A stretch of DNA of 64,000 bases. Origin: Bacillota bacterium. Lineage in GTDB: Bacteria; Bacillota; Sulfobacillia; JAJZYS01; JAILZS01. Shown here piece after piece: positions 2,571 through 56,696 of this stretch (positions are counted from its first letter, which is position 1; the number at the start of each line of letters is the position of its first letter). The stretch is from positions 2,659 to 66,658 of the forward strand of contig JAILZS010000002.1 in assembly GCA_023512375.1 (NCBI GenBank), in the 5' to 3' direction. Under the pieces are notes generated by a model. The model had not been told where the DNA came from and searched no databases. It was given only the letters and a program-made list of their open reading frames with translations. The position numbers and the translations under genes were made by a program.

Positions 2571-2625
2571 AGCGACGGCCGCACGCCGCGCGCGCGCGGC
2601 GCCCGGCGTGCGGCGGCGGTGCGGG

Positions 2626-4170
2626 TCAGCCGACGGGGTGGGCGTCGAACAGGTCGATCTCCTCGTCCGGCCGCGGCTGCCAGTGCAGCCACTTCACGAC
2701 GCCGTACACGTCGTCCTGCTGCCACAGGAAGATCCACGGTGCGAGCTGTTGGATCTTCACCTGCACGGCGTTCCAGTCGGCCTTCTGCGCCGCCAGGGTG
2801 GTGGCCGTCTCGGCCTTGGTGATGAGCGCGGTCAGGGCCGGGTCGTTGAAGCCGCTGTAGGTTTGGTTTCCCTCGAACAGGTAGCCGAGGGTGTCCTGCG
2901 GGTAGAGCGAGGGGCCCCAGCCGAGGTAGAACATGTCGCCGGCCGTGCGGTTGATGATCTTCGTCAGGTGGACCGCCCAGGCGTCGGAGATCACGTGCAC
3001 GTGGATGCCGATCTGGCCGAGCTCGGCGGCCACCGCCTGGCAAACCTCGCTGTCCATGGGATAGCGCCCGTTCGAGCAACTGAACGTGAGGTTGAGGTCC
3101 TGCGGCTTGTAGCCGGCCTCCTCGATGAGCTTCTTCGCCAGCGAGGGGTTATAGGTGTAGGGGCGGATGGCCGGGTCGAAGCCCGAGTTCGTGCGCGGCA
3201 GGGCGCCGGGGTCGCGGATGGCGTGCCCGTCCATGACGTCGCGGATGAGGAGCGGCACGTTCACCGCGTAGTTGAGGGCTTGGCGCACCTTCACGTTGTC
3301 GAGCGGTCCCGGCTTGAGGTTGACAAGGGCGATGTAGTCGAAGCGGGCGCTCGGCTCGAGGATGACGCGGGCGCCGTTGGCGCGCTGCACCACGGGGATG
3401 TCCGTGTACGGCAGCTCCTCGATGATGTCGACCTTACCGGCGAGGAAGGCGGACAGGCGGGCGCTGAAGTCCGGGATGACGTCGAACACGACGTTCTGGA
3501 TGGCGGGCTTGCCGCGCCAGTAGTGGGGGTTGGCCTTGAGCACAAGGTTCTGGCCCAAGGTCTGGCTCACGAACTCGTACGGGCCGGTGCCGATCGGGTG
3601 GCTGGCGAAGTACTTCAGCCCATGCTGCTGGATGTACTTGGGGGGCATGACCAGGAACTCCGTGGCCAGGAGGTAGGGGAAGAACGGCACGAACCGGCTC
3701 AGGTGGAAGACGACGGTGTACGGGTTGGGCGCCGTCACAGACTTCACGGCGCTGAAGTAGGCGGCCACCGCCGACTTGTTGGCGGGGTTCTGGATGTAGG
3801 ACATGGTGAACTGGACGGCGGAGGCGTCGAACGGCTCGCCGTCCTGGAAGCGCACGCCATGCCGAAGGGTGAGGGTCCAGGTGGTGGGCGAGGTGGCCTT
3901 CCAGCTCGTGGCCAGCCAGGGGATGACGGCCTCGGTCTTGCCGTCGAGGGCGAGCAGGGGGTCGTAGATCTGCTGCAGCTGCCAGTTCGTGGTGGCGTCC
4001 ACGATCGTGTCGGGGATGAGGCTCAACGCGTCGGAACCGATGGCCACCGACACGGTGTCGTGGCCAGAGGCGGCGCGGTGGACCGCGGCCGACGCCGACG
4101 CGGGCAGGAGCATCGAAACCGCCAGCGCGGCCATGGCGCCGCGTGCCGCAAGGGATCTCCCGGTATGCAT
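2626..4170 (-). CDS. ABC transporter substrate-binding protein, family 5 (peptide/nickel)
   Basis: 514 aa with an N-terminal signal peptide (MHTGRSLAARGAMAALAVSMLLPASASA) and SBP family-5 motifs (TNWQLQQIYDPLLALDG, PYEFVSQTLGQNLVLKANPHYWRGKPA). RBS GGGAGGT lies before the ATG. Confidence 0.85.
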   Translation of the reverse strand: MHTGRSLAARGAMAALAVSMLLPASASAAVHRAASGHDTVSVAIGSDALSLIPDTIVDATTNWQLQQIYDPLLALDGKTEAVIPWLATSWKATSPTTWTLTLRHGVRFQDGEPFDASAVQFTMSYIQNPANKSAVAAYFSAVKSVTAPNPYTVVFHLSRFVPFFPYLLATEFLVMPPKYIQQHGLKYFASHPIGTGPYEFVSQTLGQNLVLKANPHYWRGKPAIQNVVFDVIPDFSARLSAFLAGKVDIIEELPYTDIPVVQRANGARVILEPSARFDYIALVNLKPGPLDNVKVRQALNYAVNVPLLIRDVMDGHAIRDPGALPRTNSGFDPAIRPYTYNPSLAKKLIEEAGYKPQDLNLTFSCSNGRYPMDSEVCQAVAAELGQIGIHVHVISDAWAVHLTKIINRTAGDMFYLGWGPSLYPQDTLGYLFEGNQTYSGFNDPALTALITKAETATTLAAQKADWNAVQVKIQQLAPWIFLWQQDDVYGVVKWLHWQPRPDEEIDLFDAHPVG

Positions 4171-4233
4171 GGCGTACCTCCCATGGGCTCGATGGCGATG
4201 GAACGGCGACTCGCCCCGGCCGACGGCCGGGGG

Positions 4234-5391
4234 CTAGCCCACGATCTGGTCCTCCAGCCGCTTGGACCGGTGGGTGAGCACCTCGGGCACGTCGCCCACG
4301 ACCACCGTGTCGTCGTGCCGGAAGCCCCCGAGGCCGTAGATGTAGATGCCGGGCTCGGCCGAGAACACCTGCCCGGCCCGCAGGGGTTCGTAGTTGAACG
4401 CCATGTCGGCCGGCGCCTCGTGCCCGGAGATGCCCACCCCGTGACCGGTGCGGTGCATGATGTGGTCCCCGAGCCCTGCCGCCTCGATCACCGCCTGCGC
4501 CGCCTCGTCGGGGGCGCAGGTGGGCGCCCCCGTGCGCATGGCGGCGACGGCGGCGGCGTTGGCCTCCACGGCGGTGGCGTAGGCGTGCGCCTGGCGGTCG
4601 TCGGGAGGGCCGACGAACCATGTGCGCTCGTTCTCCACCACGTAGCCGTTGAAGCGGACGATGAGGATGTCGACCAGGACGTCGCCGCGCCGGATGCGCA
4701 TGCCGCACTCCGCCCCCGTACCGTGGGGCGATGCGGCGGCGGGGCCGGCCAGGGTGCTCACCCGCACCTCCACCTTCTCGCCCCCGTGGCGGCGCGCCGC
4801 TTCCGCCAGGACGAGGCGGGTCACCTCCTGGTCGAGGTCGGACACCAGCATGTCGGCGCGCACGCTCTCCGCGTAGCGGTCCTGTCCCCAGTCGGAGAGG
4901 GCTGCGGCGGCCCGCATGAGGTCGAGCTCCCGCGCCGACTTCACCAGCCGCATGTCGCGCAATAGGTGGCCGGCCAGGTGCCAGTCCGCCTCGGCCAACC
5001 CCTCCCGCAGGGGAGAGAGGGTGGGCTCGAGGGCGTCGGCGGCCAGGCGGCGCGGCCGCACCCCGTACCGCGCCAGCCCCAGGCGCACGAGCTTGGTCCA
5101 GTCCAGGACGCTCGCCGTGCGGTGGGAGCTGCGCGGGTGCTCGGTGTAGTGGACCACGTCCGCCACGGCGAGCGAGCCGCGCTCCCGCGCCATGCGGATA
5201 TGGTGGGTGGACAGCTCGTCCAGGACCATGAAGGCGCCGCCGCCGCGCGTCACGACGCAGGCGGCGGGCCGCTCCCAGGGCGCCACGTCGAGGAGGAAGC
5301 CGGACACGTAGTAGATGTTGTCGGCCTGGGTGACCACGAACGCGTCCAGGTCGTGCTCCTCCAGGTAGGCCACGATGCGGCGGTGTCGCAT
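4234..5391 (-). CDS. M24 family metallopeptidase (Xaa-Pro aminopeptidase/creatinase-like)
   Basis: Creatinase N-domain plus M24 pita-bread fold (HRTGHGVGISGHEAP, EPGIYIYGLGGFRHDDTVVV). The start was moved to the internal ATG (MRHRRIVAYLEEH) behind AGGAAG. Confidence 0.8.
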   Translation of the reverse strand: MRHRRIVAYLEEHDLDAFVVTQADNIYYVSGFLLDVAPWERPAACVVTRGGGAFMVLDELSTHHIRMARERGSLAVADVVHYTEHPRSSHRTASVLDWTKLVRLGLARYGVRPRRLAADALEPTLSPLREGLAEADWHLAGHLLRDMRLVKSARELDLMRAAAALSDWGQDRYAESVRADMLVSDLDQEVTRLVLAEAARRHGGEKVEVRVSTLAGPAAASPHGTGAECGMRIRRGDVLVDILIVRFNGYVVENERTWFVGPPDDRQAHAYATAVEANAAAVAAMRTGAPTCAPDEAAQAVIEAAGLGDHIMHRTGHGVGISGHEAPADMAFNYEPLRAGQVFSAEPGIYIYGLGGFRHDDTVVVGDVPEVLTHRSKRLEDQIVG

Positions 5392-5496
5392 GTCGAATTC
5401 TTCCTGTGGCAAAAACGTCCGCGACCACCTCCCCTTCCCTGTTCCGGGTTCGGCGCCGGGGTCGGGCCTTCCTCCCCCAGGCTCTTCTCATCCGTC

Positions 5497-6228
5497 TTAC
5501 CCGTCGCCCTGTCCCACCCGTCGGCCGCCCCTCGCGCCCCGCCCGGAGGGCGCGAGGGCGTCGCGCACGCGCCGGTAGTGGGCGAGGACGGGGGCCGTCG
5601 CCGCCGCCTGCCCGCGCGCTGCCGGCAGAGGGCCCAGGCGCTCGACCGCCAGGGGGAGCGTCTGCCAGGCGGGGACGTCGGGCACAGCGGGCATCTCCCC
5701 GCCCCCCCAGAAGGCCTGGTCGTCGAGGACGGGGGGTGCGACGCCCTCCCCGCCCGCCGCCGCCCCCGCCCTCGGCAGCGCCCTCTCCCACCCGTCGCCG
5801 CCCAGGCCGCGCGCCAGGGCGAGGAGCGACGTCCTACCCGCCGCCAGCGCGTCCGCCACCGCCTCGGCCAGCAGGCGGGCGTGGCCGCACCCCGCCGCCC
5901 CCTCTCCCCGGCCGCAGTCGCAGCGCGGCATGAGGCCGCCCCGCCCCGGCACGGGGTCGGGACCGCCCTCGGCCGCCACCCGGTCCGCCCGCGGGTCGTC
6001 CAGGGCCACCTCCGCCCCCGCCTGCAGGCCCACCACCGCCCGCCGCCACCGCGCTTGCCACTGGGGGCCCACGACGTCCACCAGGAGGGCGGTGCGGTAT
6101 CTCCCGTCCGGCCCTTCCACCCGCCCTTCGATGCGGCCCGGAGAGGCCCACATCTCGGCCACCCGCCACCCTTCGGCGGCCGGCGCGAGGCGGTCGACGG
6201 CCCGTCGCCAGCGCTCCGCCGCCGTCAC
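5497..6228 (-). CDS. SWIM zinc-finger domain protein
   Basis: About 244 aa; the C-terminal part of ORF 5497..7647 carries CDCGRGEGAAGCGH (a CxCxnCxH SWIM finger). A GTG start preceded by GGAGGTGGGAGG overlaps the TGA stop of the upstream SNF2 gene (GTGA). Confidence 0.55.
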   Translation of the reverse strand: MTAAERWRRAVDRLAPAAEGWRVAEMWASPGRIEGRVEGPDGRYRTALLVDVVGPQWQARWRRAVVGLQAGAEVALDDPRADRVAAEGGPDPVPGRGGLMPRCDCGRGEGAAGCGHARLLAEAVADALAAGRTSLLALARGLGGDGWERALPRAGAAAGGEGVAPPVLDDQAFWGGGEMPAVPDVPAWQTLPLAVERLGPLPAARGQAAATAPVLAHYRRVRDALAPSGRGARGGRRVGQGDG

Positions 6229-9200
6229 CCTCCCACCTCCCGCCGCCTCAGGCGCAGAAGCTCCGCCAACGCCTCGTCGTCCAGCTCGGTGAGCCAACCC
6301 TCGCCCCCGCCCACCACCCGCTCGGCCAGGCGGCGCTTCTCCTCCAGCAAGGCGTCGACGCGCTCCTCCACCGTGTCGACGGTCACCATCTTGTGCACGA
6401 TCACCCGTTCCCGCTGGCCGATGCGGTGGGCGCGGTCGGTGGCCTGCTCCTCCACGGCGGGGTTCCACCACCGGTCCAGGTGCACGACCCGGTTGGCGCG
6501 CGCCAGGTTGAGCCCCACGCCGCCGGCCCGAAGCGAGAGCAGCAGGAGGGGCGGGCCGTCCTCGGACTGGAAGGCGGAAAGGGCACGATCGCGCTCGGGA
6601 CGGGTGAGGCCGCCGTGCACGAAAGGCACCGGCCCCCCGGCCATCTCCTCTAGGAGGGGGAGGAGGAGGCGGCCGAAGGCGACGAACTGGGTGAACAGGA
6701 GGAGACGGTCCCCCTCGTCTAGCGCCTCCTGCACGATCTCCCGCACGCGCACCACCTTGCCCGACCGCTCCGGCCGGATGGGGCCCCCTTCGCCCAGGTA
6801 GTGGCTCGGGTGGTTGAGGATCTGCTTGAGGCGCAAGAGGGTCGTGATCACCGCCCCCCGCCGCTCCATGCCCCGTAGACCCGGCAGCGCCGCCATCAGG
6901 CCGTCCACCACCGCCCGGTACAGGCGCGCCTGCTCGTGCGTGAGGGTGCACAGCTCGCGCACCTCCACCTTGTCCGGCAGGCCGGCCAGGACGGCGGGGT
7001 CGTCCTTGCGACGGCGGAGCACGAAGGGGGCCACCAGTCGGCGCAATACGCGCGCCGCCTCGGCATCGCCCTCCTCCACGGGGCGGGCGAAGCGGCGGCG
7101 GAAGGCGGGGGCGGAACCCAGGTAGCCCGGCTGGAGGAAGCGGAACAGGGCCCACAGGTCCATGAGCCGGTTCTCGATCGGCGTCCCGGTGAGGGCGAGG
7201 CGGTAGCGGGCGCCCAGGCGCCGCACACCCCGGCTGGCGCGCGTGAGGGGGTTCTTGATCGCCTGCGCCTCGTCCAGGATGACGCCGTCCCAGGCGATGC
7301 GGGACAGGAGGGAGATGTCCCGCCAGACGAGGGCGTACGAGGTGAGGACCACGTCGTGGCGCGCCAGGCGCACCGCCTCTCCGGCGTCCCGCCCCCGCCC
7401 GCCGCCGTGGCGCACGGCCATGCGCAGGCCGGGGGCGAAGCGGGCGAACTCGCGCTTCCAGTTCGTAAGCACAGAGGTAGGCGCCACCAGGAGCGTGGGC
7501 CGCGGCCCCTCCTCCTCCCCCGGGTGCGTCGCCCCCGCCCGCCCCGCCCGGTGGCGGGCGAGTACGAGGGCGATGGCCTGTACGGTTTTGCCGAGGCCCA
7601 TGTCGTCGGCCAACAGGGCGCCCATCCCGCGCTCGGCCATCGACCACAGCCAGCGCACGCCCGCCTCTTGGTAAGGCCGCAGCTCGCCTGCCAGGCCCTC
7701 CCCCAGGGCCGGCACGGGCGGCAGGGCGGCGAGCGCCGGCGCCCCCGCCGCCATGGCCCGCTCCGCCTCGGCCAGCCAGCCCGCGCCGTCGGCCACGGCC
7801 ACCTCGAGCCCGCCTTCTCCCCCCGCCTCCGCCAGCAGGGGGAGGAGCGCCGCCCCCTCCACTTGACCCTGGCCCTCGGGGGCGGCGGCGAGCAGGCGGG
7901 CCAGGAGGGCCGCGTCGCGTTCCGACACCTCCACCCAGCCGCTGCGCGCCGCCATCAGCCCGCCGCCGCGGCGCACGGCGTGCGCCAGTCGGGCGGGGGC
8001 GATCGCTTCACCCTCGGCCAGGGCGCGCCAGCGCACCGACAGCCGGCCGAGCCCGCCGTCCTCCCCCTCCTCCGCCGCCACCTCCACCCGCAGGCGGCGG
8101 CGCGCCTCGGCCCGCCAGGCGGCAGGCAAGGCGACGTCCACCCCCATCCGGGCCAGGGCGGGGCCGTCGGAACGAAGGAAGTCGAGCGCCTGGGCGGGGG
8201 AGAGCTCCACCCCCTCCCCCCGCCCCGCCGCCTCCAAGGCCCAGGCCAGGGCGGGGGCGCAGGCGCCAGCCCGTTCCACCTGGGCACGTGCCGCCCGGGC
8301 GAGCACAAGGGGGGTGACGCCGGCACGCTCCGCCGCGGTGCGGGCCTCGGGCGCCTGCTCCAGGGCCGCCGCCAGGGGAAGGGGTTGGCCACCGGTCGAC
8401 GGGAGCGCGATCCCCGCCGTCAAGCGCCAGGCGCCCTCCTCCCCCGTCGGGGCGAGGCGCAGGGAGAGGCGTACCGAGGCCCCCTCCCGAGCCGGCGCCG
8501 CCCACGCCGCCAGGCGCTCGCCCACCCGTCGCACGGGCAAGGTGGCCGCCGCCACCTGGGGCGACTCCGCTCCCAGCGCCCTGGCCACCCGCGCCCAGGC
8601 ACTCGTCTGGCGGCGCACCCGCCCTGCCGGCGGACCGCCCGGGGCACGGCGGGGGGTGCCGGCGCGGGTGGGCGTGTGGCGGCCCAGGGCGTCCACCGCC
8701 GCCGACAAGAGGGCACGGGCGGCATGCCAGCGCCAGGCCTCCGGCCGCGCCGCCCCGGCCGGCGGGCGCTGGGCGGCGGCGAGGGCGAGGGGCATGGCCT
8801 GTACGAGGGCGGCCAGCGCCCGGCCGATCTCCGGATCGTCCACCCAGGGGTGCCAGGTGGCCTCGGGCAGGCGGCGGTCGAGCGCCACCCAAGGCACCAC
8901 CGCCCCCGTACGCCACAGGACGGCGGCCAACTCCGCCAGGCGACCCAGCCACCGCAGCGAAGGGGAGGTGTCCGCCCCGAGGGCGGGGGCCCCGAGCCAG
9001 AGCGGCCCGGTCAGGCGGCCGGTCGTCACCCACACGACCGGCACCGCCCAGGGCCGCAGGCGCGCCTCCCCCTCGCCGTCGGCCGCACTCGCCCCCAGGG
9101 CGAGGGCCGCGGGCGACGGGAGAGGGCGGGGGCCGCGCGCCGGCAGGTAGAGCACGGCGGAGGCGGGGCGCGCCGCCGGCCCCCGGCCGCCGGCGGGGGG

Positions 9201-9344
9201 AGGGGCGAGGAAGGCGGGCAGGGCCGGAAGGGCCGCACTGAGCGCCCGCTCCACCGCGGCGGCGCCCGCCGCCGCCGGGTGGGGCGGCGCCCCGAGGCGG
9301 GCGGGCGGGCGCCGCCCCTCCGGGTCGGGGGATAGGCCCTCCAA
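6225..9344 (-). CDS. SNF2-family helicase (DEAD/DEAH plus HelicC) with a long N-terminal SNF2-associated region
   Basis: The C-terminal ~550 aa carry the SNF2 ATPase motifs (LADDMGLGKTVQAIAL, DEAQAIKNPLTRA, LTGTPIENRLMDLWALFRF, and a helicase C domain ...DRWWNPAVEEQATDRAHRIGQ). The track ORF start at 10166 overlaps metX by about 216 codons, so the real start must be at or below 9517. The first in-frame candidate is a TTG near 9344; the start is uncertain. Confidence 0.7.
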   Translation of the reverse strand: MEGLSPDPEGRRPPARLGAPPHPAAAGAAAVERALSAALPALPAFLAPPPAGGRGPAARPASAVLYLPARGPRPLPSPAALALGASAADGEGEARLRPWAVPVVWVTTGRLTGPLWLGAPALGADTSPSLRWLGRLAELAAVLWRTGAVVPWVALDRRLPEATWHPWVDDPEIGRALAALVQAMPLALAAAQRPPAGAARPEAWRWHAARALLSAAVDALGRHTPTRAGTPRRAPGGPPAGRVRRQTSAWARVARALGAESPQVAAATLPVRRVGERLAAWAAPAREGASVRLSLRLAPTGEEGAWRLTAGIALPSTGGQPLPLAAALEQAPEARTAAERAGVTPLVLARAARAQVERAGACAPALAWALEAAGRGEGVELSPAQALDFLRSDGPALARMGVDVALPAAWRAEARRRLRVEVAAEEGEDGGLGRLSVRWRALAEGEAIAPARLAHAVRRGGGLMAARSGWVEVSERDAALLARLLAAAPEGQGQVEGAALLPLLAEAGGEGGLEVAVADGAGWLAEAERAMAAGAPALAALPPVPALGEGLAGELRPYQEAGVRWLWSMAERGMGALLADDMGLGKTVQAIALVLARHRAGRAGATHPGEEEGPRPTLLVAPTSVLTNWKREFARFAPGLRMAVRHGGGRGRDAGEAVRLARHDVVLTSYALVWRDISLLSRIAWDGVILDEAQAIKNPLTRASRGVRRLGARYRLALTGTPIENRLMDLWALFRFLQPGYLGSAPAFRRRFARPVEEGDAEAARVLRRLVAPFVLRRRKDDPAVLAGLPDKVEVRELCTLTHEQARLYRAVVDGLMAALPGLRGMERRGAVITTLLRLKQILNHPSHYLGEGGPIRPERSGKVVRVREIVQEALDEGDRLLLFTQFVAFGRLLLPLLEEMAGGPVPFVHGGLTRPERDRALSAFQSEDGPPLLLLSLRAGGVGLNLARANRVVHLDRWWNPAVEEQATDRAHRIGQRERVIVHKMVTVDTVEERVDALLEEKRRLAERVVGGGEGWLTELDDEALAELLRLRRREVGG

Positions 9345-9517
9345 CCAGAAGCCGATGCGCTCGCCCCCGCCCTCCGGGGCGAGGACGGCATGGAGGACAC
9401 CCTCGCCGTCGCCGTGGCGCCTCGACTGGGACAGCGGCCCGCACCCCTTCGCCTCCGGGCTGTACGGGGACAGATTCCCACCCGGCGCCCGCCTTCCTGC
9501 CCTCGCCCGAGGCTCGG

Positions 9518-10603
9518 CTACGAACCCAGGCCGGCGACCGCGGCGGGCGTCTCGAGCACGTCGAGGAGGGCTGGGGCGAGACAGCGCCCCAGGGCAGCGG
9601 CCTCCACCAGGAAGGCGTCGTGCCCGTACTCGGAGGCGAACGGCAGGTACGTCGCGGCTTGCCCGCGCTGCCGGGCCGCGGTGGCGCTCTCCCGCACCCG
9701 CTCGGCAGGGAAGAGGATGTCGGAGGTGATGCCCACGTACACGATGGGCGCAGGCGGGGCCGAGGGGGCGGGCGAGACGGGGGCGGTCACGTCGTGGCTG
9801 TCCATGGCGCGCAGGAGCACGAGGTAGCTCAGGGCGCAGAACCGGTCCGTCAGGCGCTTTCCCTGGTGGCGCAGGTAGCCCTCGACCGCGAAGGACGGCC
9901 CGTCCAGGTCGAGCGGCTGCGCCCCCGGGATGAGGCGGCGGCCGAACTGCCGCTCCATGGACCGGTCGCCGCGGTAGGTGATCATGGCGATCTCCCGCGC
10001 CCGCGCCAGCCCCGGTGTGGGGCCGGGGCGCCCGGGGTCGAAGGCGGGGTCGGAGACGATGGCGTTGCGCTGCACCGCGTTCCAGGCCAGCGCCTGCGGC
10101 AGCATGCGGTCGGTGGCGCCGATGGCCACCGCCTTCGCCACCCGGTCGCCGTACAGCCGCGCCCACTCCGCCGCCTGCATGCCGCCGAGCGAGCCACCGA
10201 TCACCAATCGCAGGCGGCGCACGCCCAGCCTCTCCAAGGCGAGGGCCTCAAGGCGCACCATGTCGCGCACCGTCACCACGGGGAAGCCGAGGCCGAAGGG
10301 GCGCCCGTCCTCCCCCGCGTCCCCCGGCCCGGTCGTGCCGTAACAGGAACCCAGGACATTCATGCACACGACCGCCAGCCGCGTCGGGTCGAGCAGGCGC
10401 CCGGGGCCCACCAGGGGCTCCCACCAGCCGCGTGCGCCGTCCACGGCGCCCGCCCGGGCGTCGGCGGTGAGGGGGTGGGTGACGAGCACCGCCTCCTCCC
10501 CCAGCTCGCCCCATACTCCGGCCCGCACCCGCACCCGCTCGAGCCGGCCGCCCGCCTCCAGGTCGAAGGGGCCGAGCGCCAGGTCGAGCACGCGCCCGTC
10601 CAT
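9518..10603 (-). CDS. metX: Homoserine O-acetyltransferase
   Basis: About 361 aa alpha/beta hydrolase (MDGRVLDLALGPFDLEAGGRLERVRV..., GGSLGGMQAAEW). It lies immediately downstream of metY. The 811-aa track ORF is an alternate-frame fusion. Confidence 0.85.
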   Translation of the reverse strand: MDGRVLDLALGPFDLEAGGRLERVRVRAGVWGELGEEAVLVTHPLTADARAGAVDGARGWWEPLVGPGRLLDPTRLAVVCMNVLGSCYGTTGPGDAGEDGRPFGLGFPVVTVRDMVRLEALALERLGVRRLRLVIGGSLGGMQAAEWARLYGDRVAKAVAIGATDRMLPQALAWNAVQRNAIVSDPAFDPGRPGPTPGLARAREIAMITYRGDRSMERQFGRRLIPGAQPLDLDGPSFAVEGYLRHQGKRLTDRFCALSYLVLLRAMDSHDVTAPVSPAPSAPPAPIVYVGITSDILFPAERVRESATAARQRGQAATYLPFASEYGHDAFLVEAAALGRCLAPALLDVLETPAAVAGLGS

Positions 10604-10611
10604 GCCCCCGC

Positions 10612-11922
<1,311 letters not shown>

Positions 11923-11950
11923 CGTCGTCCTCCTTCGGGGGCCGCCCGTA

Positions 11951-12112
11951 CAACGAAGGACGCCCGTCGCATGTGGAAGGGCGTCCCGGTACGTCGCACC
12001 CTCCCCTTTATCTCTCAGCGCCCGCGCGCTGCAGGAGTTGGCACCTTCGGCGACGAGTCGCCGGGTTGCCGGGCTTCATCGGGCCAGTCCCTCCGCCTCT
12101 CTCGATAACGGG
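11951..12112 (-). promoter_or_regulatory. SAM-I (S-box) riboswitch with intrinsic terminator, leader of metY-metX
   Basis: The minus-strand sequence CGTTATCGAGAGAGGCGGAGGGACTGGCCCGATGAAGCCCGGCAACC...GGTGCCAACTCCTGCAGCG...CTGAGAGATAAAGG matches the SAM-I consensus (P1 UUAUCgAGAG / GAGAUAAA, GGAGGGAcuGGCCCgaUGAa, GCAACC, GGUGCcAAuUCCuGCAG). A hairpin GGGACGCCC...GGGCGTCC plus TTCGTTGT terminator follows at 11951..11988. Confidence 0.8.
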
Positions 12113-12493
12113 TCGAGGTCCTATTCGGTTGTGTGCCGTACCGTACCAAGGGCCGGGGCCTTCTGTCAATGGGCCCGCCCGGGCATGGGGGCCGCCGGCC
12201 GGGCTGGCGCCGGCCGTACCCCCCCGCCGCTCCCTTGCCTGGGACGCGCCGACCGGGTCCGGGGAGAGCGCCCAGCCGGAGGGAGTCGGATGCTCCGGCA
12301 ACCGTGCCCGGATCGCGCCCCGGGTGCGGGGAGGATGGTCGGCCGGGTAGGCGTGTTGGCCGCGGCGGTCGGGGTGGCGGCGGCGCAGGCGCGCTGCCGG
12401 ACGGGCGCAGGAAGCCACCGGCCCCCTCGCCGCCGTCCGGGCGGGCGCCGTCGGGCGCGGACGGCCGGGCCGCCCTGGCGGCCCCGTCTCCGG

Positions 12494-20178: not shown

Positions 20179-20904
20179 TTGCGTCCCGGGGGCCCGGGAC
20201 CGGTCCGCTCCCCGGCGTGGGCCGCCGACCCCGCCCTGGCGCCGATCGATGCGGACGCCCTGGCGCGCGACCCGGCCGATGTGGCGCCGGACCTCCTGGG
20301 CCGCTACCTGATCCGCCTCGTGGGGGGGGAGACCATGGCCGTGCGCCTGGTCGAGGTGGAGGCCTACCGCGGCCCCCTCGACCCGGGCTCGCACGCCTAC
20401 CGCGGGCCCACCGCCCGAAACCGGGTCATGTTCGGGCCGGTGGGGCGCGCCTACGTCTACTTTACCTATGGCAACCACCACATGCTCAACGTCGTCTGCC
20501 ACCCGCCGGGCATGCCCGGCGCCGTGCTCCTTCGGGGGGCCGAGCCGGTGTGGGGGGTCGAGGCCATGGCCCGCCTGCGCCGCTCCGGCCGGCGGGTGGC
20601 GGCGGCGCCCGCCGCCGGCCCGGATGCGGTGGCACGGGCGCGGTTCGTGCGCTGGCTGTTGGCCGGCCCGGCGCGGCTCGCCGCGGCGTTGGGGGTGGAC
20701 GGCGCCGACTACGGGCGGGAGATGGTCGCACCCTGGCCCGAAGGGTGCGAGCGCGCCTTCCTCCTCACCCGGGGCGAGCCGCCGGCGCCGTCGCGCATCG
20801 CCACCAGCGGCCGCATCGGCCTGAGCCGGGGGGCGGAGCTCCGGCTGCGCTTCTACCTGCCCGACAGCCCCGGCGTCTCCCCCGCCCGCCCGACCCACCC
20901 CTAG
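20179..20904 (+). CDS. DNA-3-methyladenine glycosylase (Mpg/AAG family)
   Basis: MPG family core (GRYLIRLVGGETMAVRLVEVEAYRGPLDPGSHAYRGPTARNRVMFGPVGRAYVYFTYGNHHMLNVV). The start was placed at the first in-frame TTG after the convergent OYE gene start; exact start uncertain. Confidence 0.65.
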   Translation: MRPGGPGPVRSPAWAADPALAPIDADALARDPADVAPDLLGRYLIRLVGGETMAVRLVEVEAYRGPLDPGSHAYRGPTARNRVMFGPVGRAYVYFTYGNHHMLNVVCHPPGMPGAVLLRGAEPVWGVEAMARLRRSGRRVAAAPAAGPDAVARARFVRWLLAGPARLAAALGVDGADYGREMVAPWPEGCERAFLLTRGEPPAPSRIATSGRIGLSRGAELRLRFYLPDSPGVSPARPTHP

Positions 20905-20995
20905 GGCCCGGCAGGGAACGGATGGTGGGCGCGGCGAACGTCGCCCGCGGGGGGATGGCGATGGGAGCGGCGCCGGGCAAGGGCCGGACAAGGGC

Positions 20996-23794
20996 GTGAG
21001 CGCCCGCCTGACGGCGGGCCCTGCGGGGCGCGTCGCCTCCCGCCTGGCGGAACACCTGGCGGCCGAGGCGCGGCGCTCCCCCTGGCGCCGCCACACGGTG
21101 ATCGTGCCGGGGGCCAGGGCGGCGGAGGTCCTCGCCTTGCGCGTGGCCGAGGCGGGAGGCGCCTTCGGCCTCTCCCTTCTCGCCCTGCCCGCCCTCGCCC
21201 GCCGCCTCCTCATGCCCGAGCCGCCCGAACCCCTGGGGCGGGCCGCCGCGCTCCTCCTCATGCGGCAGGCGGCGCGGGAGGCGGGTCTGGAGGCGGGTCA
21301 GGGCGCCCGCGCCCTCTTGGCCGTGCGTCGGCTCCTGGCCGAGCTGGGGGTGGAACCCGCCCAGCTGGCCGACGCCCTGCCTTCCGCCCAGCAGCGTGCG
21401 CTTGAGCGTTTCGATCTCCTTCGCCGTCCCCGTCCCCTGGAGCCGGAGGTGGTATGGGCCGCCGCCCGCCGCCTGGAGGCAGGGGAAGCATCGCCCCCCG
21501 ACCATCTGGACATGTGGGGGTTCCTGGCCCTTACGCCCGCCGAGGCGGCGCTGGTGGCGGCGCTCGCCGCCCACGCCGACGTCGCCGCCTACCTGTCGGC
21601 GCCGGCCCCGGGCGGCGGAGCGGGGGCGGGCCGCGCCCGCCTTCTGGCGGCGCTGGGCGCGGCGGAGGCGGCGGTGGCCGCGGACGAACTCGCCCCCGTC
21701 CAGCTCCTGCCCGCCGCCAACCCGGCCGCCGAGGCGGACGCGGCCGCCCGCCTCCTGGCCGGGTGGGCGGCCGACGACCTAACGCCCCACCGTCTGGCCG
21801 CCGTGGGTCCCCGCCCCTCGCTCGAGCGGGTGGCGGAGCGCCTCGAGCACCTGGGCCTGGCGGTGCGCCTGGTCCCCGGCCCCCTGCGGGCCCGCCCGCC
21901 GGGCACCCTGCTCACCCGCCTGGTGAAGGTGTGGGCGGAGGACCGCCCCGACGACCTTGCCGCCCTCCTGGCGGGCCCGTGGGCGCCGGCCGAGGCGGCG
22001 GGCGCCGCCGCCCTGGCGCGCCGCGTGGAAGGCATGGGCGGGACGTCGGCGCGCGGCCGCCTGCGCGCGGTGTGGCGGCGGGAGGAGGAAGGCGAGGGCG
22101 AGGGCGACGGCGCGGGCGAGGCGGCGATCCTCCTCCTGCACCACCTCGAGCGTCTGGACGCGGCCCGCACATGGGGCGAGCGCGCCCAGGTCCTGGCCGA
22201 CGCCCTGGACGACCTTGGGGCCGACGCCGGCCCGGATCCGGATGCGCAGGCGGTGCACGCCGCCCTCTTGCGCCTGGCGGCCCTGGACGCCCTCCCCGCG
22301 CGTCTTGCCGAGCCGGCCGACGTCGCGGACGCGTTGGGCGAGGAGCTCTCCCACACCGCCCCCCCACCCCGCCTGGAGGCAGCGCCGGTGGAACTCCTCA
22401 CCTGGGAGGAGGCGGGGGCGCTGGCCGCCGACGGCGTCGTCCTCCTGGGGGTGGCGGCGGAGGACGTGGGGGCGCCGCAGGCGGCGGGCGAGGTCCTGCC
22501 GGAGGAGGCGCGCCGGAAGCTCGCCCACCTGGGACGGGAGGCGGACGGGCCCGACGAGACGCCGCAGCGCCGCCTCGCGGCCGCCGCCGTGGCGCGGGCC
22601 GGCGCCGGGCGCGTGGGCGCCGCCTACGTCGCCCAGGGGCGGACGGGGGAGCGGCCCCCCGCCGCCCTTCTCGCGCCCTACCGGGTCGCCGCCATGCCCG
22701 ACCTCCCCCTGGACGCCCTGGACAGCCGGGCCCGGCTGTTCGCCCGCGCTCGGGCGGGGGAGGAGGCCCTCGTCGCCCTGGCCGCCGGCGCCGCGCCGCC
22801 GGCGGGGGCGGCGCGCTGGCTCATGGCCGCGCGCTTCCCCGGCGCCACCGAGTACGACGGCCAGGTGCCGCCGCCGCGTTGGCGCGAGAGCCCCGGCGGC
22901 TGGTCGCCCACGGTACTCGAGGGCTATGCCACCTGCCCGTATACGGACTTCGCCGGCCGCATCCTCGGTCTGGACGGGGGGCGCCCGCCCGGCGCCCTCG
23001 ACGACGTGGAGGCCGCCCCCGACGTCGCCGGCCGCCTCGCCCACGCCGCCCTGGAGGCGCTGCGGCGGCGGGCGCGCTCCGAGGGGCAGGAGCCCCTCAC
23101 CGCCGCCCACCTGGGCTGGGCGCGGGACGTGCTGGCGGAGGCCTTGGAGCAGGCCTTCGCCCAGGAGGCCCAAGGCCCCCTGGGACCGGTGCAGCGCCAG
23201 GTGCTCCTGGCCGACCTGGCGCACGCCGTGGCCCTCGACGTGCGCCTGGGGGACCTCGAGACGTGGGACACCGAGTGGCGCTTCGGCCCGGACGGTGCGG
23301 CCTCCCTCGTGCTGACGGGGGAGGACGGGGAGCGCTACCCCGTGCGCGGCCGGGTGGACCGACTGGCGGCCGCGCCCGGAGGCGAGCTGTGGGTGATCGA
23401 CTACAAGGCCGGCCGCTCCCTCCCCCGCGCCGCCGTGGCCCCCGACGCCCTGCAGCTGCCGCTGTACATGCTGGCGGTTGCCGAAGCCTTCCACCGCGAT
23501 CTCCGGAGGATGCGGGGGGCGTACGTCTCCGTGAGCGCGGGCGGCGGCTTCGTCCGCCGCGTCCTCGACGGCGCCGAACTGGAGCGCGAGCTTCCCGCCC
23601 TCCGGGCCGCCGTCGCCGCCGCCGTGGCCGGCATGCGCGCGGGCGACTTCCGCCCCCGTCCGGACGGCGGCCGCAACTGTCGCTTCTGCCGCTTTCGGCC
23701 GCTGTGCCCTCCTGACGTGGCCGAGCGAGCCGCCCGCAAGGGATGGGACGAAACGGGGGACGGGACCGCTCCCGGGAAGGAGGAGGAGCCGTGA
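20996..23794 (+). CDS. addB: AddB-like helicase/nuclease subunit (inactive helicase fold plus PD-(D/E)XK nuclease with Fe-S cysteines)
   Basis: 932 aa; the C-terminal RecB-type nuclease has VIDYKAGRS...LQLPLYMLAV followed by CRFCRFRPLC (Fe-S cluster cysteines). It lies immediately upstream of and coupled to an AddA-like gene. Confidence 0.65.
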   Translation: MSARLTAGPAGRVASRLAEHLAAEARRSPWRRHTVIVPGARAAEVLALRVAEAGGAFGLSLLALPALARRLLMPEPPEPLGRAAALLLMRQAAREAGLEAGQGARALLAVRRLLAELGVEPAQLADALPSAQQRALERFDLLRRPRPLEPEVVWAAARRLEAGEASPPDHLDMWGFLALTPAEAALVAALAAHADVAAYLSAPAPGGGAGAGRARLLAALGAAEAAVAADELAPVQLLPAANPAAEADAAARLLAGWAADDLTPHRLAAVGPRPSLERVAERLEHLGLAVRLVPGPLRARPPGTLLTRLVKVWAEDRPDDLAALLAGPWAPAEAAGAAALARRVEGMGGTSARGRLRAVWRREEEGEGEGDGAGEAAILLLHHLERLDAARTWGERAQVLADALDDLGADAGPDPDAQAVHAALLRLAALDALPARLAEPADVADALGEELSHTAPPPRLEAAPVELLTWEEAGALAADGVVLLGVAAEDVGAPQAAGEVLPEEARRKLAHLGREADGPDETPQRRLAAAAVARAGAGRVGAAYVAQGRTGERPPAALLAPYRVAAMPDLPLDALDSRARLFARARAGEEALVALAAGAAPPAGAARWLMAARFPGATEYDGQVPPPRWRESPGGWSPTVLEGYATCPYTDFAGRILGLDGGRPPGALDDVEAAPDVAGRLAHAALEALRRRARSEGQEPLTAAHLGWARDVLAEALEQAFAQEAQGPLGPVQRQVLLADLAHAVALDVRLGDLETWDTEWRFGPDGAASLVLTGEDGERYPVRGRVDRLAAAPGGELWVIDYKAGRSLPRAAVAPDALQLPLYMLAVAEAFHRDLRRMRGAYVSVSAGGGFVRRVLDGAELERELPALRAAVAAAVAGMRAGDFRPRPDGGRNCRFCRFRPLCPPDVAERAARKGWDETGDGTAPGKEEEP

Positions 23795-26700: not shown

Positions 26701-27054
26701 CTGGTGCGGCGCGCCGCCGCCGCCCCCATGCGGGCCGTGGAGGCGGACGCCGTCGCCCGCCTGGCGGACGGGAGCGTGGTGCTGGGGCGCGTGGACCTCG
26801 TGTTCGACGACGGCGAGGGGCCGATCCTCGTCGACCTGAAGACCGACCGCCTCCCCGCCCCGGACGCTGCCTCCGCCGCCCGCCACGGCGAGCGGTACGG
26901 TTACGACGCCCAGCTCAGGCTCTACGCCGCCGCCCTGGCCGAGGCGGGCCTGCCCGCGCCTTACGCCGCCTACGTCCTCTACGTGCGCCACGGCCTGGCC
27001 GTACCCGTGCCGCTCGCGCCTGCGGCGGGCGAGGCCCGCACCCCCTCCGCCTGA
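23791..27054 (+). CDS. addA: AddA-like UvrD-family helicase with C-terminal RecB-type nuclease
   Basis: Walker A ISLEAGAGTGKTTAL, UvrD motifs (TFLRAAGEEL, LVDEFQDTDPRQ, FAVGDPKQSIYRFRGADV, MTVHEAKGNEFAVVVL), and a C-terminal PD-(D/E)XK (VDLVFDDGEGPILVDLKTD...YDAQLRLYAAAL). The GTG start overlaps the addB TGA. Confidence 0.7.
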   Translation: MTGEGGEGLDRAAREAVRMRIADAISLEAGAGTGKTTALVERVLALLAAGVPLTSLAVVTFLRAAGEELRVRLRERLGGREEAWAWRALADLAAAPVGTLHSLAQRLLAQEGWAGGWDPATRVLEEDEAEELSRTHFRRWLEEAARDSAPLAAARRLGAALSAPTLWRLAVSLPPDAVLPPPPPPLSLAPLAPFEASLASAEETFARVRSACRDGTDAALKAGEELGHARAELASWEGEERLFAALRLALPSPRAGRRDRWSPPSALDELRAALSAAQESQRRLSRAVGERVAYDLLAWLLPFAAHAEAERRRSGVADFDDLIRRAVSLLAGDGAVRARARARIRAVLVDEFQDTDPRQVELLTLLAGRPDDPPDQGVARLFAVGDPKQSIYRFRGADVATYLRVREAFPPSGRLAITRNFRARPALVETANRVMAPLFASGPIPYLALEGGREGEGPPPVQLLLPPDEAPPPAGMAELRRREADLVASHVRAALDAPWRVDGRPLAPGDIALLFPRRTAYGTYTAALERAGVPYAAGRDRGLWRRRAARDAVLLLRACARPRDADAVAAALHSSLVGVSDAEMAAFVRLGGRFDLAIAPPPGSPPLLVRAMAALGEAAFARHLPPARRLAALFDALDVATAAGLEEGEAGVRAVMRVLETVRALQARAGDGEPASLDRVADALAAVGWEGEEGDLPDPAEGAEPTPPGGRVRLMTVHEAKGNEFAVVVLCDLWSPPPPPRGPRVLLRPEDRLAALSLGARGPFSPGAEELAAVDGERQAEERVRLLYVALTRARSALVLPDGRASRPDGRGRGKADESMGGLILRAADGKGDDPAPSLADALVRLGVPVALFRPRPVAPVVLPPLPAADLTAPPRDLAALRARLARRALPLLRPSEAAPAAEAGTAAGGGREREAAARLGRAVHAVVASALAAAGGTEDLSARAAREAAQAGLGAAEVEALARAALFHPLVRRAAAAPMRAVEADAVARLADGSVVLGRVDLVFDDGEGPILVDLKTDRLPAPDAASAARHGERYGYDAQLRLYAAALAEAGLPAPYAAYVLYVRHGLAVPVPLAPAAGEARTPSA

Positions 27055-56376: not shown

Positions 56377-56461
56377 TGGTGCGGGCGGAGAGACTCGAAC
56401 TCTCACGAGCGCTGCTCATGGGATCCTAAGTCCCACGCGTCTGCCGTTCCGCCACGCCCGC
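56377..56461 (-). tRNA. tRNA-Leu (anticodon TAG), type II with long variable arm, CCA encoded
   Basis: Folded by hand: acceptor GCGGGCG/CGCCCGC, anticodon stem TGGGA/TCCCA, loop CTTAGGA, long variable arm, T-arm GAGAG-TTCGAGT-CTCTC, ACCA end. Confidence 0.85.
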
Positions 56462-56470
56462 GCGAACCTC

Positions 56471-56547
56471 TTGGTGGGCCATGATGGATTCGAACCATCG
56501 ACGCCCCGCTTAAAAGGCGGGCGCTCTAACCGCTGAGCTAATGGCCC
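56471..56547 (-). tRNA. tRNA-Lys (anticodon TTT), CCA encoded
   Basis: GGGCCATTAGCTCAGCGGTTAGAGCGCCCGCCTTTTAAGCGGGGCGTCGATGGTTCGAATCCATCATGGCCCACCA; anticodon loop CTTTTAA. Confidence 0.9.
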
Positions 56548-56618
56548 AAGGGGCCCGGACGACCCCCGGCGGAGGCGGTGCGCCGAGGCGCGCCCCAAAG
56601 ATCCGTAGACACAAAAAC

Positions 56619-56696
56619 TGGGGTGAATGAGGGGACTCGAACCCCCGACCCCCAGGGCCACAACCTGGTGCTCTAACCAACTGAGCTACATCCACC
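56619..56696 (-). tRNA. tRNA-His (anticodon GTG) with encoded G-1 and CCA
   Basis: G-1 pairs with discriminator C73; acceptor GTGGATG/CATTCAC; anticodon loop TTGTGGC. Confidence 0.9.

What the first reader, a model, noticed from the sequence alone, without database searches (positions are those of the whole stretch)
5497..9517. Translationally coupled SNF2 helicase plus SWIM zinc-finger gene pair of unknown function, wedged between a peptide-utilisation locus and metXY
This is a complete SNF2 ATPase core (DEXDc plus HelicC with all canonical motifs) preceded by a very long Ala/Arg/Pro-rich N-terminal region of more than 450 aa. It is followed, with a GTGA stop/start overlap, by a protein carrying a CxCx9CxH SWIM finger. 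Bacterial SNF2 plus SWIM pairs recur in Firmicutes (for example the B. subtilis ywqA neighbourhood), but their function is essentially undescribed. Defense, recombination-remodelling or RNA-polymerase recycling roles have all been proposed. Here the pair sits about 11 kb from an AddAB-like recombination nuclease. The real start of the SNF2 gene cannot be fixed, because the track ORF overlaps metX by about 650 nt.
Basis: partly seen in the sequence, partly recalled or inferred. Interest (0 to 1): 0.6.

Follow-up and report, generated by a model that had tools for sequence, protein, structure and literature searches.

The report
SNF2 DNA motor with SWIM-finger partner
This is a real, intact copy of a two-gene module (an SNF2-type DNA motor and a small SWIM zinc-finger partner) that is found across most bacterial phyla and some archaea and has been recognised since 2002; its cellular job is still unknown, and this copy is an ordinary, somewhat diverged member.

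Summary
On the minus strand an SNF2 ATPase gene (stop 6225; start between 9473 and 9401) overlaps by GTGA a 243-aa gene (6228-5497) that carries CxCx8CxH.

The motor's closest solved relative is Sulfolobus SSO1653/SsoRad54 (E 8e-138). It is not RapA (34 bits against a cut-off of 576).

The partner gives no Pfam SWIM hit on its own. A profile of its family finds 152 representative proteins. Of 147 checked, 127 carry the finger at the aligned position, and 41 of 60 match PF04434.

Linkage is close to obligate:
- 68 of 78 testable SNF2 loci from different species carry a linked or fused SWIM gene.
- 63 of 64 testable SWIM loci have the SNF2 gene directly upstream.

No third gene is conserved, and the neighbours here are metabolic genes. 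The AddAB genes 11 kb away are unrelated neighbours.

The pairing is already known: the SWIM domain is named after bacterial SWI2/SNF2 ATPases.

Most likely mechanism (inferred): a 1:1 dsDNA translocase complex in which the SWIM subunit targets or regulates the motor to remodel protein-DNA complexes, either RNA polymerase or the recombinase.

New details are modest: a diverged partner subfamily, and no canonical start codon, so the NCBI start at TTG 9344 truncates conserved strands. Interest is low to moderate.

The parts
6225..9473 (-). SNF2-family ATPase gene (SSO1653/SsoRad54-like, DUF3670-containing), 1082 codons if read from CTG 9473. The 5' end is uncertain within 9473-9401.
   Evidence: Pfam domains. 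Best solved relative is 1z63, E 8e-138. Identical NCBI protein P0007 and 88%-identical P0008. dN/dS 0.21 against L001.
9401..9473 (-). Interval that must contain the true SNF2 start. It holds no in-frame ATG, GTG or TTG. The candidates are CTG 9473 (TTG at the same position in L001) and CTG 9434 (AAGGGG 9 nt upstream).
   Evidence: Codon reading. Alignment with L001. The motif VLHAVL..IGFWLE (9398-9339) is conserved in homologues of 57-59% overall identity. AF2 predicts it as strands 25-31 and 39-46. The NCBI start at TTG 9344 cuts through it.
7863..8216 (-). DUF3670 (PF12419, 'SNF2 Helicase protein') inside the ~594-aa N-terminal region (7692-9473).
6804..7673 (-). SNF2-related ATPase lobe 1 (motifs I to III: GLGKT, DEAQ, TGTP).
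   Evidence: E 6e-68; motifs seen.
6417..6740 (-). Helicase_C lobe 2 (motifs IV to VI, QATDRAHRIGQ).
   Evidence: E 7.2e-17.
6225..6240 (-). Coupling junction: GGAGG (6240-6236), GTG start of the partner (6228-6226) overlapping the TGA stop of SNF2 (6227-6225).
   Evidence: The junction is identical in L001. The two genes overlap by 4 nt in L002/L003 and L004 and abut in L005.
5497..6228 (-). SWIM-finger partner gene, 243 aa, a diverged subfamily. It lacks most of the canonical RLxRGRxYARxGxV segment.
5881..5922 (-). SWIM finger C103-x-C105-x8-C114-x-H116 (CDCGRGEGAAGCGH).
   Evidence: C103, C114 and H116 are invariant and C105 is at least 90% conserved across 60 homologues.
5608..5640 (-). 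Conserved C-terminal motif RLGPLPAARGQ (canonical form LGPFPFWRG). It is a candidate docking peptide; that role is inference only.
   Evidence: Invariant in the subfamily and recognisable in canonical members.

Best explanation
The locus encodes a chromosomal, vertically inherited, two-subunit DNA motor of the SWIM-associated SWI2/SNF2 class (the SsoRad54/SSO1653 group).

The 1082-aa subunit is an ATP-driven translocase on duplex DNA. It tracks along the helix and generates torsion or pushing force without separating the strands. This step rests on homology to a solved and assayed enzyme.

The 243-aa SWIM protein is made in step with the motor through the GTGA stop/start overlap and binds it 1:1. 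This is inferred from near-obligate linkage and from natural fusions.

The partner's zinc finger and three-stranded sheet would act as the specificity or regulatory module. It would either recognise a DNA structure or protein target, or gate the ATPase. This step is also inferred.

The complex would then displace or reposition a protein stuck on DNA. The two candidate targets with experimental precedent in relatives are stalled or post-termination RNA polymerase (B. subtilis YwqA binds RNAP) and the RecA/RadA recombinase filament or its joint molecules (SsoRad54 binds RadA and stimulates strand exchange). The choice between them is not decided by anything in this window.
For: Identity of the motor:
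- Pfam SNF2-rel_dom, Helicase_C and DUF3670.
- 465 bits, E 8e-138, to SSO1653 (1z63) over residues 595-1075. The next hits are eukaryotic ISWI at about 250 bits.
- All ATPase motifs are intact.

Biochemistry of SSO1653: it is a dsDNA-dependent ATPase, changes DNA topology, binds RadA and stimulates strand exchange (PMC2677860; PMC1616948).

Identity of the partner:
- CxCx8CxH, with a chance frequency of about 1e-5.
- Profile search found 152 representative proteins; of 147 checked, 127 carry the finger.
- 41 of 60 match PF04434.
- RefSeq calls relatives 'SWIM zinc finger family protein' next to 'DEAD/DEAH box helicase'.

Evidence for a complex:
- GTGA overlap with GGAGG upstream. The two genes overlap by 4 nt or abut in L001-L005.
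- 57 downstream, 6 upstream and 5 fused partners among 78 testable species loci chosen only by SNF2 similarity.
- 63 of 64 testable metagenome loci chosen only by SWIM similarity have the SNF2 C-terminus directly upstream.

Evidence for a housekeeping role:
- Synteny is conserved around the pair. The peptide-transport genes lie downstream in L001-L005 and metY/metX lie upstream in L001-L003. This holds down to about 45% partner identity.
- No third gene recurs in the neighbourhood.
- The neighbours are metabolic genes.
- The family is seen in only 2 of 50,697 phage records and 152 of 72,556 plasmids, many of the listed ones very large replicons.

YwqA-RNAP interaction: PMC10804225, PMC7385302.
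Against: - No experiment exists on this protein, or on any bacterial SNF2-then-SWIM pair, in the literature I could search.
- Complex formation is inferred, not shown.
- The window partner lacks the Arg-rich RGRxYAR segment of canonical members, so its binding properties may differ.
- In the closest relative (L001) the partner's N-terminal sheet is removed by a frame-shifting deletion. If that is not an assembly error, the module tolerates loss of part of the partner.
- ywqA knock-outs in B. subtilis have only mild phenotypes (PMC7385302).
Confidence: 0.75

Rival explanations
1. Rad54-like recombination accessory. The motor, guided by the SWIM subunit, acts on RecA filaments or D-loops, parallel to SsoRad54-RadA and to the eukaryotic SWIM protein Sws1 that regulates Rad51. 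This is a specific version of the best explanation rather than a contradiction of it.
For: The closest characterised relative, SsoRad54, binds RadA and stimulates strand exchange (PMC2677860), and the window motor matches it at E 8e-138. From my own knowledge, not tested here: eukaryotic SWS1/ZSWIM7 and Shu2 are SWIM proteins that modulate Rad51.
Against: No recA, recombination or SOS genes are linked in 80 loci. AddAB 11 kb away is separated by unrelated genes. In B. subtilis, ywqA inactivation only marginally reduced survival with MMS and did not significantly reduce it with H2O2 in PcrA-depleted cells (PMC7385302).
Confidence: 0.2
2. RapA-like RNA polymerase recycling or backtracking factor. 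The complex binds RNAP and pushes it off or back along the DNA.
For: B. subtilis YwqA, a member of the same broad SNF2 group with a SWIM partner upstream, co-purifies with RNAP and is 'believed' to act like RapA (PMC10804225, PMC7385302).
Against: The window protein is not a RapA orthologue: 34 bits against a 576 cut-off, and no other Pfam family, RapA-specific domains included, matched at E up to 0.1. RapA is not among the best 60 PDB matches. The N-terminal model shows no resemblance to any solved RNAP-binding domain. RapA works without a SWIM partner.
Confidence: 0.25
3. A minimal anti-phage or anti-plasmid defence module, like the SNF2 helicases of Zorya (ZorD), DISARM (DrmD), Dpd (DpdE) or BREX (BrxH).
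For: PADLOC models for ZorD and DpdE align to the helicase core with E down to 8e-114. Iyer et al. state that SWIM-associated SNF2 ATPases also occur in mobile elements (PMC5512222). One fused copy lies in Wolbachia phage WO.
Against: The matches cover only the shared ATPase core and are far below the curated cut-offs: ZorD 245 against 1500, DrmD 86 against 950, DpdE 32 against 500. The partner hits no PADLOC model. No nuclease, methylase or other defence gene is linked here or recurs in 80 loci. Synteny among metabolic genes is stable in diverged relatives. The family is very rare in phage records.
Confidence: 0.07
4. The downstream ORF is a chance ORF of a very G+C-rich genome and the 'finger' is a coincidence.
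For: The window is 75-82% G+C and full of long spurious ORFs in all frames. The protein has no Pfam hit of its own.
Against: Homologues exist at 44-47% identity in the same position in four or more other assemblies. The profile reaches 152 representative proteins across phyla. GC3 is 0.93 and GC2 0.65, typical of coding sequence here, and dN/dS is 0.41. The AF2 model is confident (pLDDT 82).
Confidence: 0.01

Closest known systems
[quoted passage not shown] 2017
   Same: The ATPase core is the best match by a wide margin (465 bits, residues 595-1075). All motifs are present. It belongs to the prokaryotic group defined by association with SWIM.
   Different: The window protein has a ~594-aa bacterial N-terminal region with DUF3670 and a separate, downstream SWIM partner. 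Only the catalytic domain of SSO1653 has been solved. The RadA interaction is known only for the archaeal enzyme.
Actinobacterial SNF2 helicases (NCBIfam NF058637, SCO1167/SCO6262 family) with an adjacent 'SWIM zinc finger family protein'
   Same: Same architecture (DUF3670 + SNF2 + Helicase_C) and the same gene order with the SWIM gene directly downstream. It is the best NCBIfam hit and covers residues 320-1090.
   Different: Scores 536 bits against an equivalog cut-off of 1200, so it is a relative and not a member. The window partner belongs to a diverged subfamily lacking the canonical RGRxYAR segment, with CxCx8CxH instead of the commonest form CSCPDWxxPCKH.
Bacillus subtilis YwqA (SNF2) with a YwqB-like SWIM protein
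   Same: An SNF2 motor genetically coupled to a SWIM-finger protein on the same strand. It is the only bacterial relative with any experimental data: RNAP interaction and mild genetic phenotypes (PMC7385302, PMC10804225).
   Different: In Bacillales loci the partner is upstream, about 500 aa, and has CxCx5CxH. The window has the order and size typical of Actinomycetota and most other phyla, although NCBI labels the source a Firmicutes/Bacillota MAG.
Escherichia coli RapA/HepA
   Same: A bacterial Snf2-family ATPase that remodels a protein-DNA complex (RNAP), so it is a plausible analogue for the mode of action.
   Different: Not orthologous (34 bits against 576). RapA has its own N-terminal domains and no SWIM partner.
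Eukaryotic SWIM proteins (ZSWIM8, MEKK1, MuDR transposase, Sws1)
   Different: Unrelated outside the finger region, with different partners and functions. The structural similarity is weak.

Membership tests
Snf2 family ATPase, SSO1653/SsoRad54-like (SWIM-associated) group | SNF2-related domain and Helicase_C above Pfam gathering scores | tested here: met
   229.5 bits (cut-off 24.9) and 62.1 bits (cut-off 23.5)
Snf2 family ATPase, SSO1653/SsoRad54-like (SWIM-associated) group | Intact ATPase/translocase motifs I, Ia, II (DExx), III, IV, V, VI | tested here: met
   GLGKT, PTSVLTNW, DEAQ, TGTPIEN, FTQF, SLRAGGVGLNL and QATDRAHRIGQ read in the alignment
Snf2 family ATPase, SSO1653/SsoRad54-like (SWIM-associated) group | Closer to SSO1653 than to other Snf2 subfamilies | tested here: met
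   1z63 scores 465 bits; the next distinct proteins (ISWI, ERCC6) score about 230-250 bits
Snf2 family ATPase, SSO1653/SsoRad54-like (SWIM-associated) group | Genetic coupling or fusion to a SWIM-finger protein | tested here: met
   GTGA overlap here. 68 of 78 testable species loci are linked or fused. The reverse test gives 63 of 64
Snf2 family ATPase, SSO1653/SsoRad54-like (SWIM-associated) group | dsDNA-stimulated ATPase and duplex translocation without unwinding | not testable with these tools
   Known for SSO1653 (PMC2677860, PMC1616948); needs biochemistry here
SWIM zinc finger (PF04434) | CxCxnCxH signature | tested here: met
   C103-x-C105-x8-C114-x-H116. C103, C114 and H116 are invariant and C105 is at least 90% conserved across 60 homologues
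SWIM zinc finger (PF04434) | The protein itself matches the Pfam SWIM profile | tested here: not met
   No hit even at E 10
SWIM zinc finger (PF04434) | Homologous to proteins that match the SWIM profile | tested here: met
   3 of 6 close relatives and 41 of 60 profile-detected relatives match PF04434, best E 1.6e-7. 127 of 147 carry the motif at the aligned position
SWIM zinc finger (PF04434) | SWIM-like fold | tested here: inconclusive
SWIM zinc finger (PF04434) | Binds zinc through the Cys3His ligands | not testable with these tools
   Needs metal analysis of purified protein
RapA/HepA RNA polymerase-associated ATPase | Scores above the NCBIfam RapA equivalog cut-off | tested here: not met
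   34.2 bits against 576, and only over 98 residues of lobe 2
RapA/HepA RNA polymerase-associated ATPase | RapA-specific N- and C-terminal domains | tested here: not met
RapA/HepA RNA polymerase-associated ATPase | Binds RNA polymerase | not testable with these tools
   Reported for B. subtilis YwqA only (PMC10804225)
Defence-system SNF2 helicases (ZorD, DrmD, DpdE, BrxH) | Full-length match above the curated cut-off | tested here: not met
   ZorD 245 against 1500; DrmD 86 against 950 and 58 against 610; DpdE 32 against 500. PADLOC hits cover the ATPase core only
Defence-system SNF2 helicases (ZorD, DrmD, DpdE, BrxH) | Cognate partner genes (ZorABC, DrmABC/methylase, dpd cluster, brx genes) nearby | tested here: not met
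   The neighbours are metY, metX, an M24 peptidase, an opp-type transporter, a PRTase and oxidoreductases. No gene family recurs in 80 loci
NCBIfam NF058637 SCO1167/SCO6262 family helicase | Score at or above the equivalog cut-off of 1200 bits | tested here: not met
   536 bits, covering model positions 180-932 of 932. This makes it a related lineage, not an equivalog

The most novel reading that the evidence does not exclude
The prokaryotic SWIM + SNF2 pair could be the ancestral form of a recombinase-regulating machine. Its parts would survive separately in eukaryotes as Rad54 (motor) and the SWIM proteins of the Shu/SWS1 complexes (Rad51 regulators). On this reading the window pair acts on RecA filaments or joint molecules. 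A smaller window-specific variant: the pair lies about 45 nt downstream of an S-box-controlled metY-metX unit with no recognisable terminator, so in this lineage it could be expressed by read-through and tied to SAM status.
Probability: 0.12. Interest if true: 0.6.

Novelty: new member of a known kind. Interest (0 to 1): 0.25.

Why it matters
The SWIM-associated SNF2 motor is among the most widespread prokaryotic two-gene modules still lacking an assigned cellular role, which makes the family a worthwhile target.

This window adds little leverage on that question, because it is an uncultured MAG copy of the ordinary arrangement. What it does give:
- A quantified statement that the linkage is close to obligate in both directions, and that fusions exist. 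This justifies treating the two proteins as one enzyme.
- A diverged partner subfamily that Pfam's SWIM model misses.
- An annotation correction: the deposited start truncates conserved N-terminal strands, and the gene seems to need a non-canonical start.

Tried and rejected
- Pfam, NCBIfam and PADLOC on the partner alone gave nothing.
- A word-index homologue search for the partner found only 6 proteins. The exhaustive profile search was needed.
- The PDB sequence profile of the partner family gave only spurious Protein A repeats.
- Foldseek of the partner model against the PDB gave nothing with E below 0.1. The afdb50 library was unavailable.
- The consensus promoter/terminator scan of 5200-12300 found no promoter and one terminator-like site on the wrong strand, no more than chance. 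Folding of the two intergenic regions was no better than shuffles. The operon structure therefore stays open.
- A search for a conserved third gene found none.
- The exact-protein context look-up for the NCBI protein P0007 is not on record.
- The first attempt at the reverse locus search, with a 37-sequence alignment, failed for lack of a conserved stretch. A 12-sequence alignment worked.
- Literature searches for helZ, Rv2101/Rv2102, DUF3670, SCO1167, 'bacterial Snf2', and SWIM + phage defence found no functional study of the bacterial pair.
- AddAB proximity as a functional clue is rejected: it is 11 kb away across unrelated genes on both strands.
- Rejected identifications: RapA orthology, membership of the ZorD/DrmD/DpdE families, and a spurious ORF.

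Full report
WHAT IS THERE

The window is 70-82% G+C and is full of long ORFs in all six frames. Real genes therefore had to be picked by homology and codon-position G+C.

Two co-directional genes lie on the minus strand between metX (stop TAG 9520-9518) and an M24 peptidase gene (4234-5412).

The first gene ends at TGA 6227-6225. Pfam finds SNF2-rel_dom (E 6e-68), Helicase_C (E 7e-17) and DUF3670 (E 6e-14). All ATPase motifs can be read in the alignment: GLGKT, DEAQ, TGTP and QATDRAHRIGQ.

The second gene starts at GTG 6228-6226, which gives the GTGA overlap, with GGAGG eight bases upstream. It runs to TAA 5497 and encodes 243 aa.

The partner's only three cysteines and one of its two histidines form CDCGRGEGAAGCGH. 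That is CxCx8CxH, not x9. Only about 1 in 100,000 shuffles of the protein give such a motif.

Compared with the 88%-identical relative L001, dN/dS is 0.21 for the motor and 0.41 for the alignable part of the partner. Both are real genes under constraint.

THE START OF THE SNF2 GENE

The mechanical ORF runs 649 nt into metX. There is no ATG, GTG or TTG in frame between the metX stop and TTG 9344.

The identical NCBI protein (P0007, 1039 aa, 'MAG: ATP-dependent helicase [Firmicutes bacterium]') starts at that TTG.

Homologues of 57-59% overall identity conserve the segment VLHAVL...IGFWLE, encoded at 9398-9339. AlphaFold predicts it as the first two strands of the protein, residues 25-31 and 39-46. 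The 22 residues before it are disordered.

The true start therefore lies between 9473 and 9401. The only near-cognate candidates are two:
- CTG 9473, where the closest relative L001 has TTG.
- CTG 9434, with AAGGGG nine bases upstream.

An in-frame 33-nt indel between the window and L001 in this leader is compatible with coding but does not prove it.

WHAT THE TWO PROTEINS ARE

The motor's best solved relative is the Sulfolobus solfataricus SSO1653/SsoRad54 catalytic domain (1z63): 465 bits, E 8e-138, residues 595-1075. The next distinct proteins are eukaryotic ISWI and ERCC6, at about 230-250 bits.

NCBIfam comparisons:
- SCO1167/SCO6262 actinobacterial helicase family: 536 bits against an equivalog cut-off of 1200. 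This is the nearest family.
- RapA: 34 bits against 576.
- ZorD: 245 against 1500.
- DrmD: 86 against 950.
- DpdE: 32 against 500.

PADLOC hits to ZorD and DpdE cover only the shared ATPase core.

The partner has no Pfam, NCBIfam or PADLOC hit by itself. The evidence that it is nevertheless a SWIM protein is as follows:
- A profile of its six close relatives, searched against 1.84 billion representative proteins, found 152 proteins at E up to 0.001. Most are 230-330 aa and match over most of the profile.
- Of 147 checked, 127 carry CxCx6-25CxH at the aligned place. The commonest form is CSCPDWxxPCKH.
- In a 60-sequence alignment C103, C114 and H116 are invariant, and C105 is conserved in at least 90% of sequences.
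- 41 of the 60 match PF04434 SWIM, best E 1.6e-7.
- RefSeq annotates such genes as 'SWIM zinc finger family protein' beside 'DEAD/DEAH box helicase'.
- The AlphaFold model is confident (pLDDT 82, above 90 for residues 1-60 and 81-140). It shows a three-stranded sheet followed by the finger and helices.

The window protein belongs to a diverged subfamily. It lacks most of the canonical RLxRGRxYARxGxV segment but keeps the C-terminal LGPxPxxRG motif shared by the whole family.

IS THE LINKAGE CONSERVED?

Within the lineage. In four further assemblies (L001, L002/L003, L004, L005) the pair is intact, and the two genes overlap by four bases or abut. Their partners are 44-47% identical to the window protein, apart from the close relative L001. 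The peptide-transporter genes lie downstream in all of them. metY and metX lie upstream in the three loci that extend that far (L001-L003).

Forward test. I took 80 loci from different GTDB species, chosen only by similarity to the motor, and searched them with an HMM of the partner family. I then looked at residual cases. The 80 loci break down as follows:
- 57 have the partner directly downstream on the same strand.
- 5 have it fused to the N-terminus of the motor (Bacteroidota and a methanogen).
- 6 Bacillales loci have a longer partner upstream, with CxCx5CxH.
- 2 have it nearby but not adjacent.
- 10 have none, of which 2 lack enough downstream sequence to test.

That is 68 of 78 testable loci.

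Reverse test. I took 80 metagenome loci chosen only by similarity to canonical partners. Of these, 64 had at least 600 nt upstream, and 63 of the 64 have the C-terminus of an SNF2 gene directly upstream on the same strand.

No other gene family recurs around the pair; the next most frequent family is in 9 of 80 loci. The partner family appears in 2 of 50,697 phage records and 152 of 72,556 plasmid records. Many of the listed plasmids are very large replicons of Streptomyces, Nostoc and Cupriavidus; Bradyrhizobium also contributes many of the records.

CONTEXT IN THE WINDOW

The local gene order, all on the minus strand, is:
- SAM (S-box) riboswitch, 12005-12111, 91.6 bits
- metY
- metX
- the SNF2 gene
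- the SWIM gene
- M24 peptidase
- peptide-binding protein and permeases

No promoter or terminator consensus separates them, and the intergenic RNAs fold no better than shuffles. In relative L002 three other genes, one on the opposite strand, separate metX from the pair. Adjacency to metX is therefore local and probably not functional.

The AddB-like and AddA-like genes (20825-27054, plus strand) are 11.3 kb away. A PRTase, an FAD-linked oxidase, an Fe-S/CCG protein, an M20 peptidase and an old-yellow-enzyme-type reductase lie between them and the pair. I see no basis for a functional link.

HOW IT MOST LIKELY WORKS

Shown by close homology to an assayed enzyme: the motor is an ATP-dependent translocase on duplex DNA that alters DNA topology without unwinding (PMC2677860, PMC1616948).

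Inferred from the start/stop overlap, from near-obligate linkage in both directions and from natural fusions: the SWIM protein is a stoichiometric subunit of the motor.

The outcome would be displacement or repositioning of a protein bound to DNA. Two targets have precedent in relatives:
- RNA polymerase. B. subtilis YwqA is an RNAP interactor and is 'believed' to act like RapA; knock-outs have mild phenotypes (PMC10804225, PMC7385302).
- The recombinase. SsoRad54 binds RadA and stimulates strand exchange (PMC2677860).

Nothing in the sequence decides between them.

A defence role is not excluded but is disfavoured. There are no linked effector or modification genes. Synteny among metabolic genes is stable. 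The family is very rare in phages. Its distribution is broad and chromosomal.

COMPARISON WITH WHAT IS KNOWN, AND NOVELTY

The association of SWIM with bacterial SWI2/SNF2 ATPases is the origin of the domain's name (PMC10236294, citing Makarova et al. 2002). [quoted passage not shown] The pair is routinely annotated by PGAP.

I found no functional study of the bacterial SNF2-then-SWIM pair in the searchable library.

This locus is a new, diverged member of a known kind. The only new points are the Pfam-invisible partner subfamily, the missing canonical start codon with the consequent truncated database annotation, and the numbers on linkage.

VERDICT

Novelty is low, and interest is low to moderate (0.25). 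The family remains an open question worth experiments, but this window does not make that question more tractable.

Noticed in passing
window 12005-12111 (-): SAM (S-box) riboswitch, 91.6 bits, full length, in the leader of metY (10612-11922) and metX (about 10603-9518). The SNF2 gene begins about 45 nt after the metX stop with no recognisable terminator between them, so read-through is possible.
   Followed up: partly
window 9344-9473 (-): The deposited NCBI protein (P0007) starts at TTG 9344, which cuts two conserved, confidently predicted N-terminal strands. There is no canonical in-frame start upstream. CTG 9473 aligns with a TTG in the closest relative, so this is probably a non-canonical start or an annotation error.
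   Followed up: yes
L001 7703-7790: In the closest relative (88% aa identity) the SWIM gene has a deletion of about 165 nt that shifts the frame after codon ~21 and removes the N-terminal sheet. JGI calls a 176-aa product from an internal GTG. This is either real decay of the partner or a metagenome assembly error in a G/C homopolymer-rich stretch.
   Followed up: partly
P0012 (homologue; alignment A4 columns ~709-1120): A homologous SNF2 protein carries an intein (Pfam PF14528 and PF14890) inserted directly after the Walker A GLGK. This fits the NCBIfam name 'sll1366 family intein-prone helicase', which also hits the window protein's N-terminal region.
   Followed up: no
L039, L041, L042, L044, L055, L056 (Paenibacillus, Litchfieldia and Neobacillus loci): In these Bacillales loci the SWIM partner lies upstream of the SNF2 gene, is about 500 aa long and has a shorter finger (CxCx5CxH). 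That is a different arrangement from the window, even though the window's source is labelled Firmicutes.
   Followed up: partly
L060, L062, L079, L080, L081; phage record MN180251.1 60140-60661: Natural fusions in which the whole SWIM-partner module is the N-terminus of the SNF2 protein, in Bacteroidota (L062, L079-L081) and a Methanovirga archaeon (L060). In a Wolbachia phage WO record the partner-like stretch lies within a gene annotated as SNF2/RAD54 family helicase.
   Followed up: partly
window 20825-27054 (+): An AddB-like gene (PD-(D/E)XK nuclease) and an AddA-like gene (UvrD helicase plus PD-(D/E)XK). Their stop-to-stop ORFs overlap by about 80 nt. An asparagine synthase gene follows.
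   Followed up: partly
window 56380-56695 (-): A cluster of three tRNA genes.
   Followed up: no
window 2608-5791, both strands: Two 785-aa ORFs on opposite strands (2608-4965 on plus, 3434-5791 on minus) overlap real genes. They are artefacts of about 75% G+C and show why ORF length alone is no evidence of a gene in this window.
   Followed up: no
L028 (Nitrosopumilaceae archaeon chromosome): A thaumarchaeal MAG carries the bacterial-type arrangement (SNF2 gene followed directly by the SWIM gene), so the split pair is not confined to bacteria.
   Followed up: no
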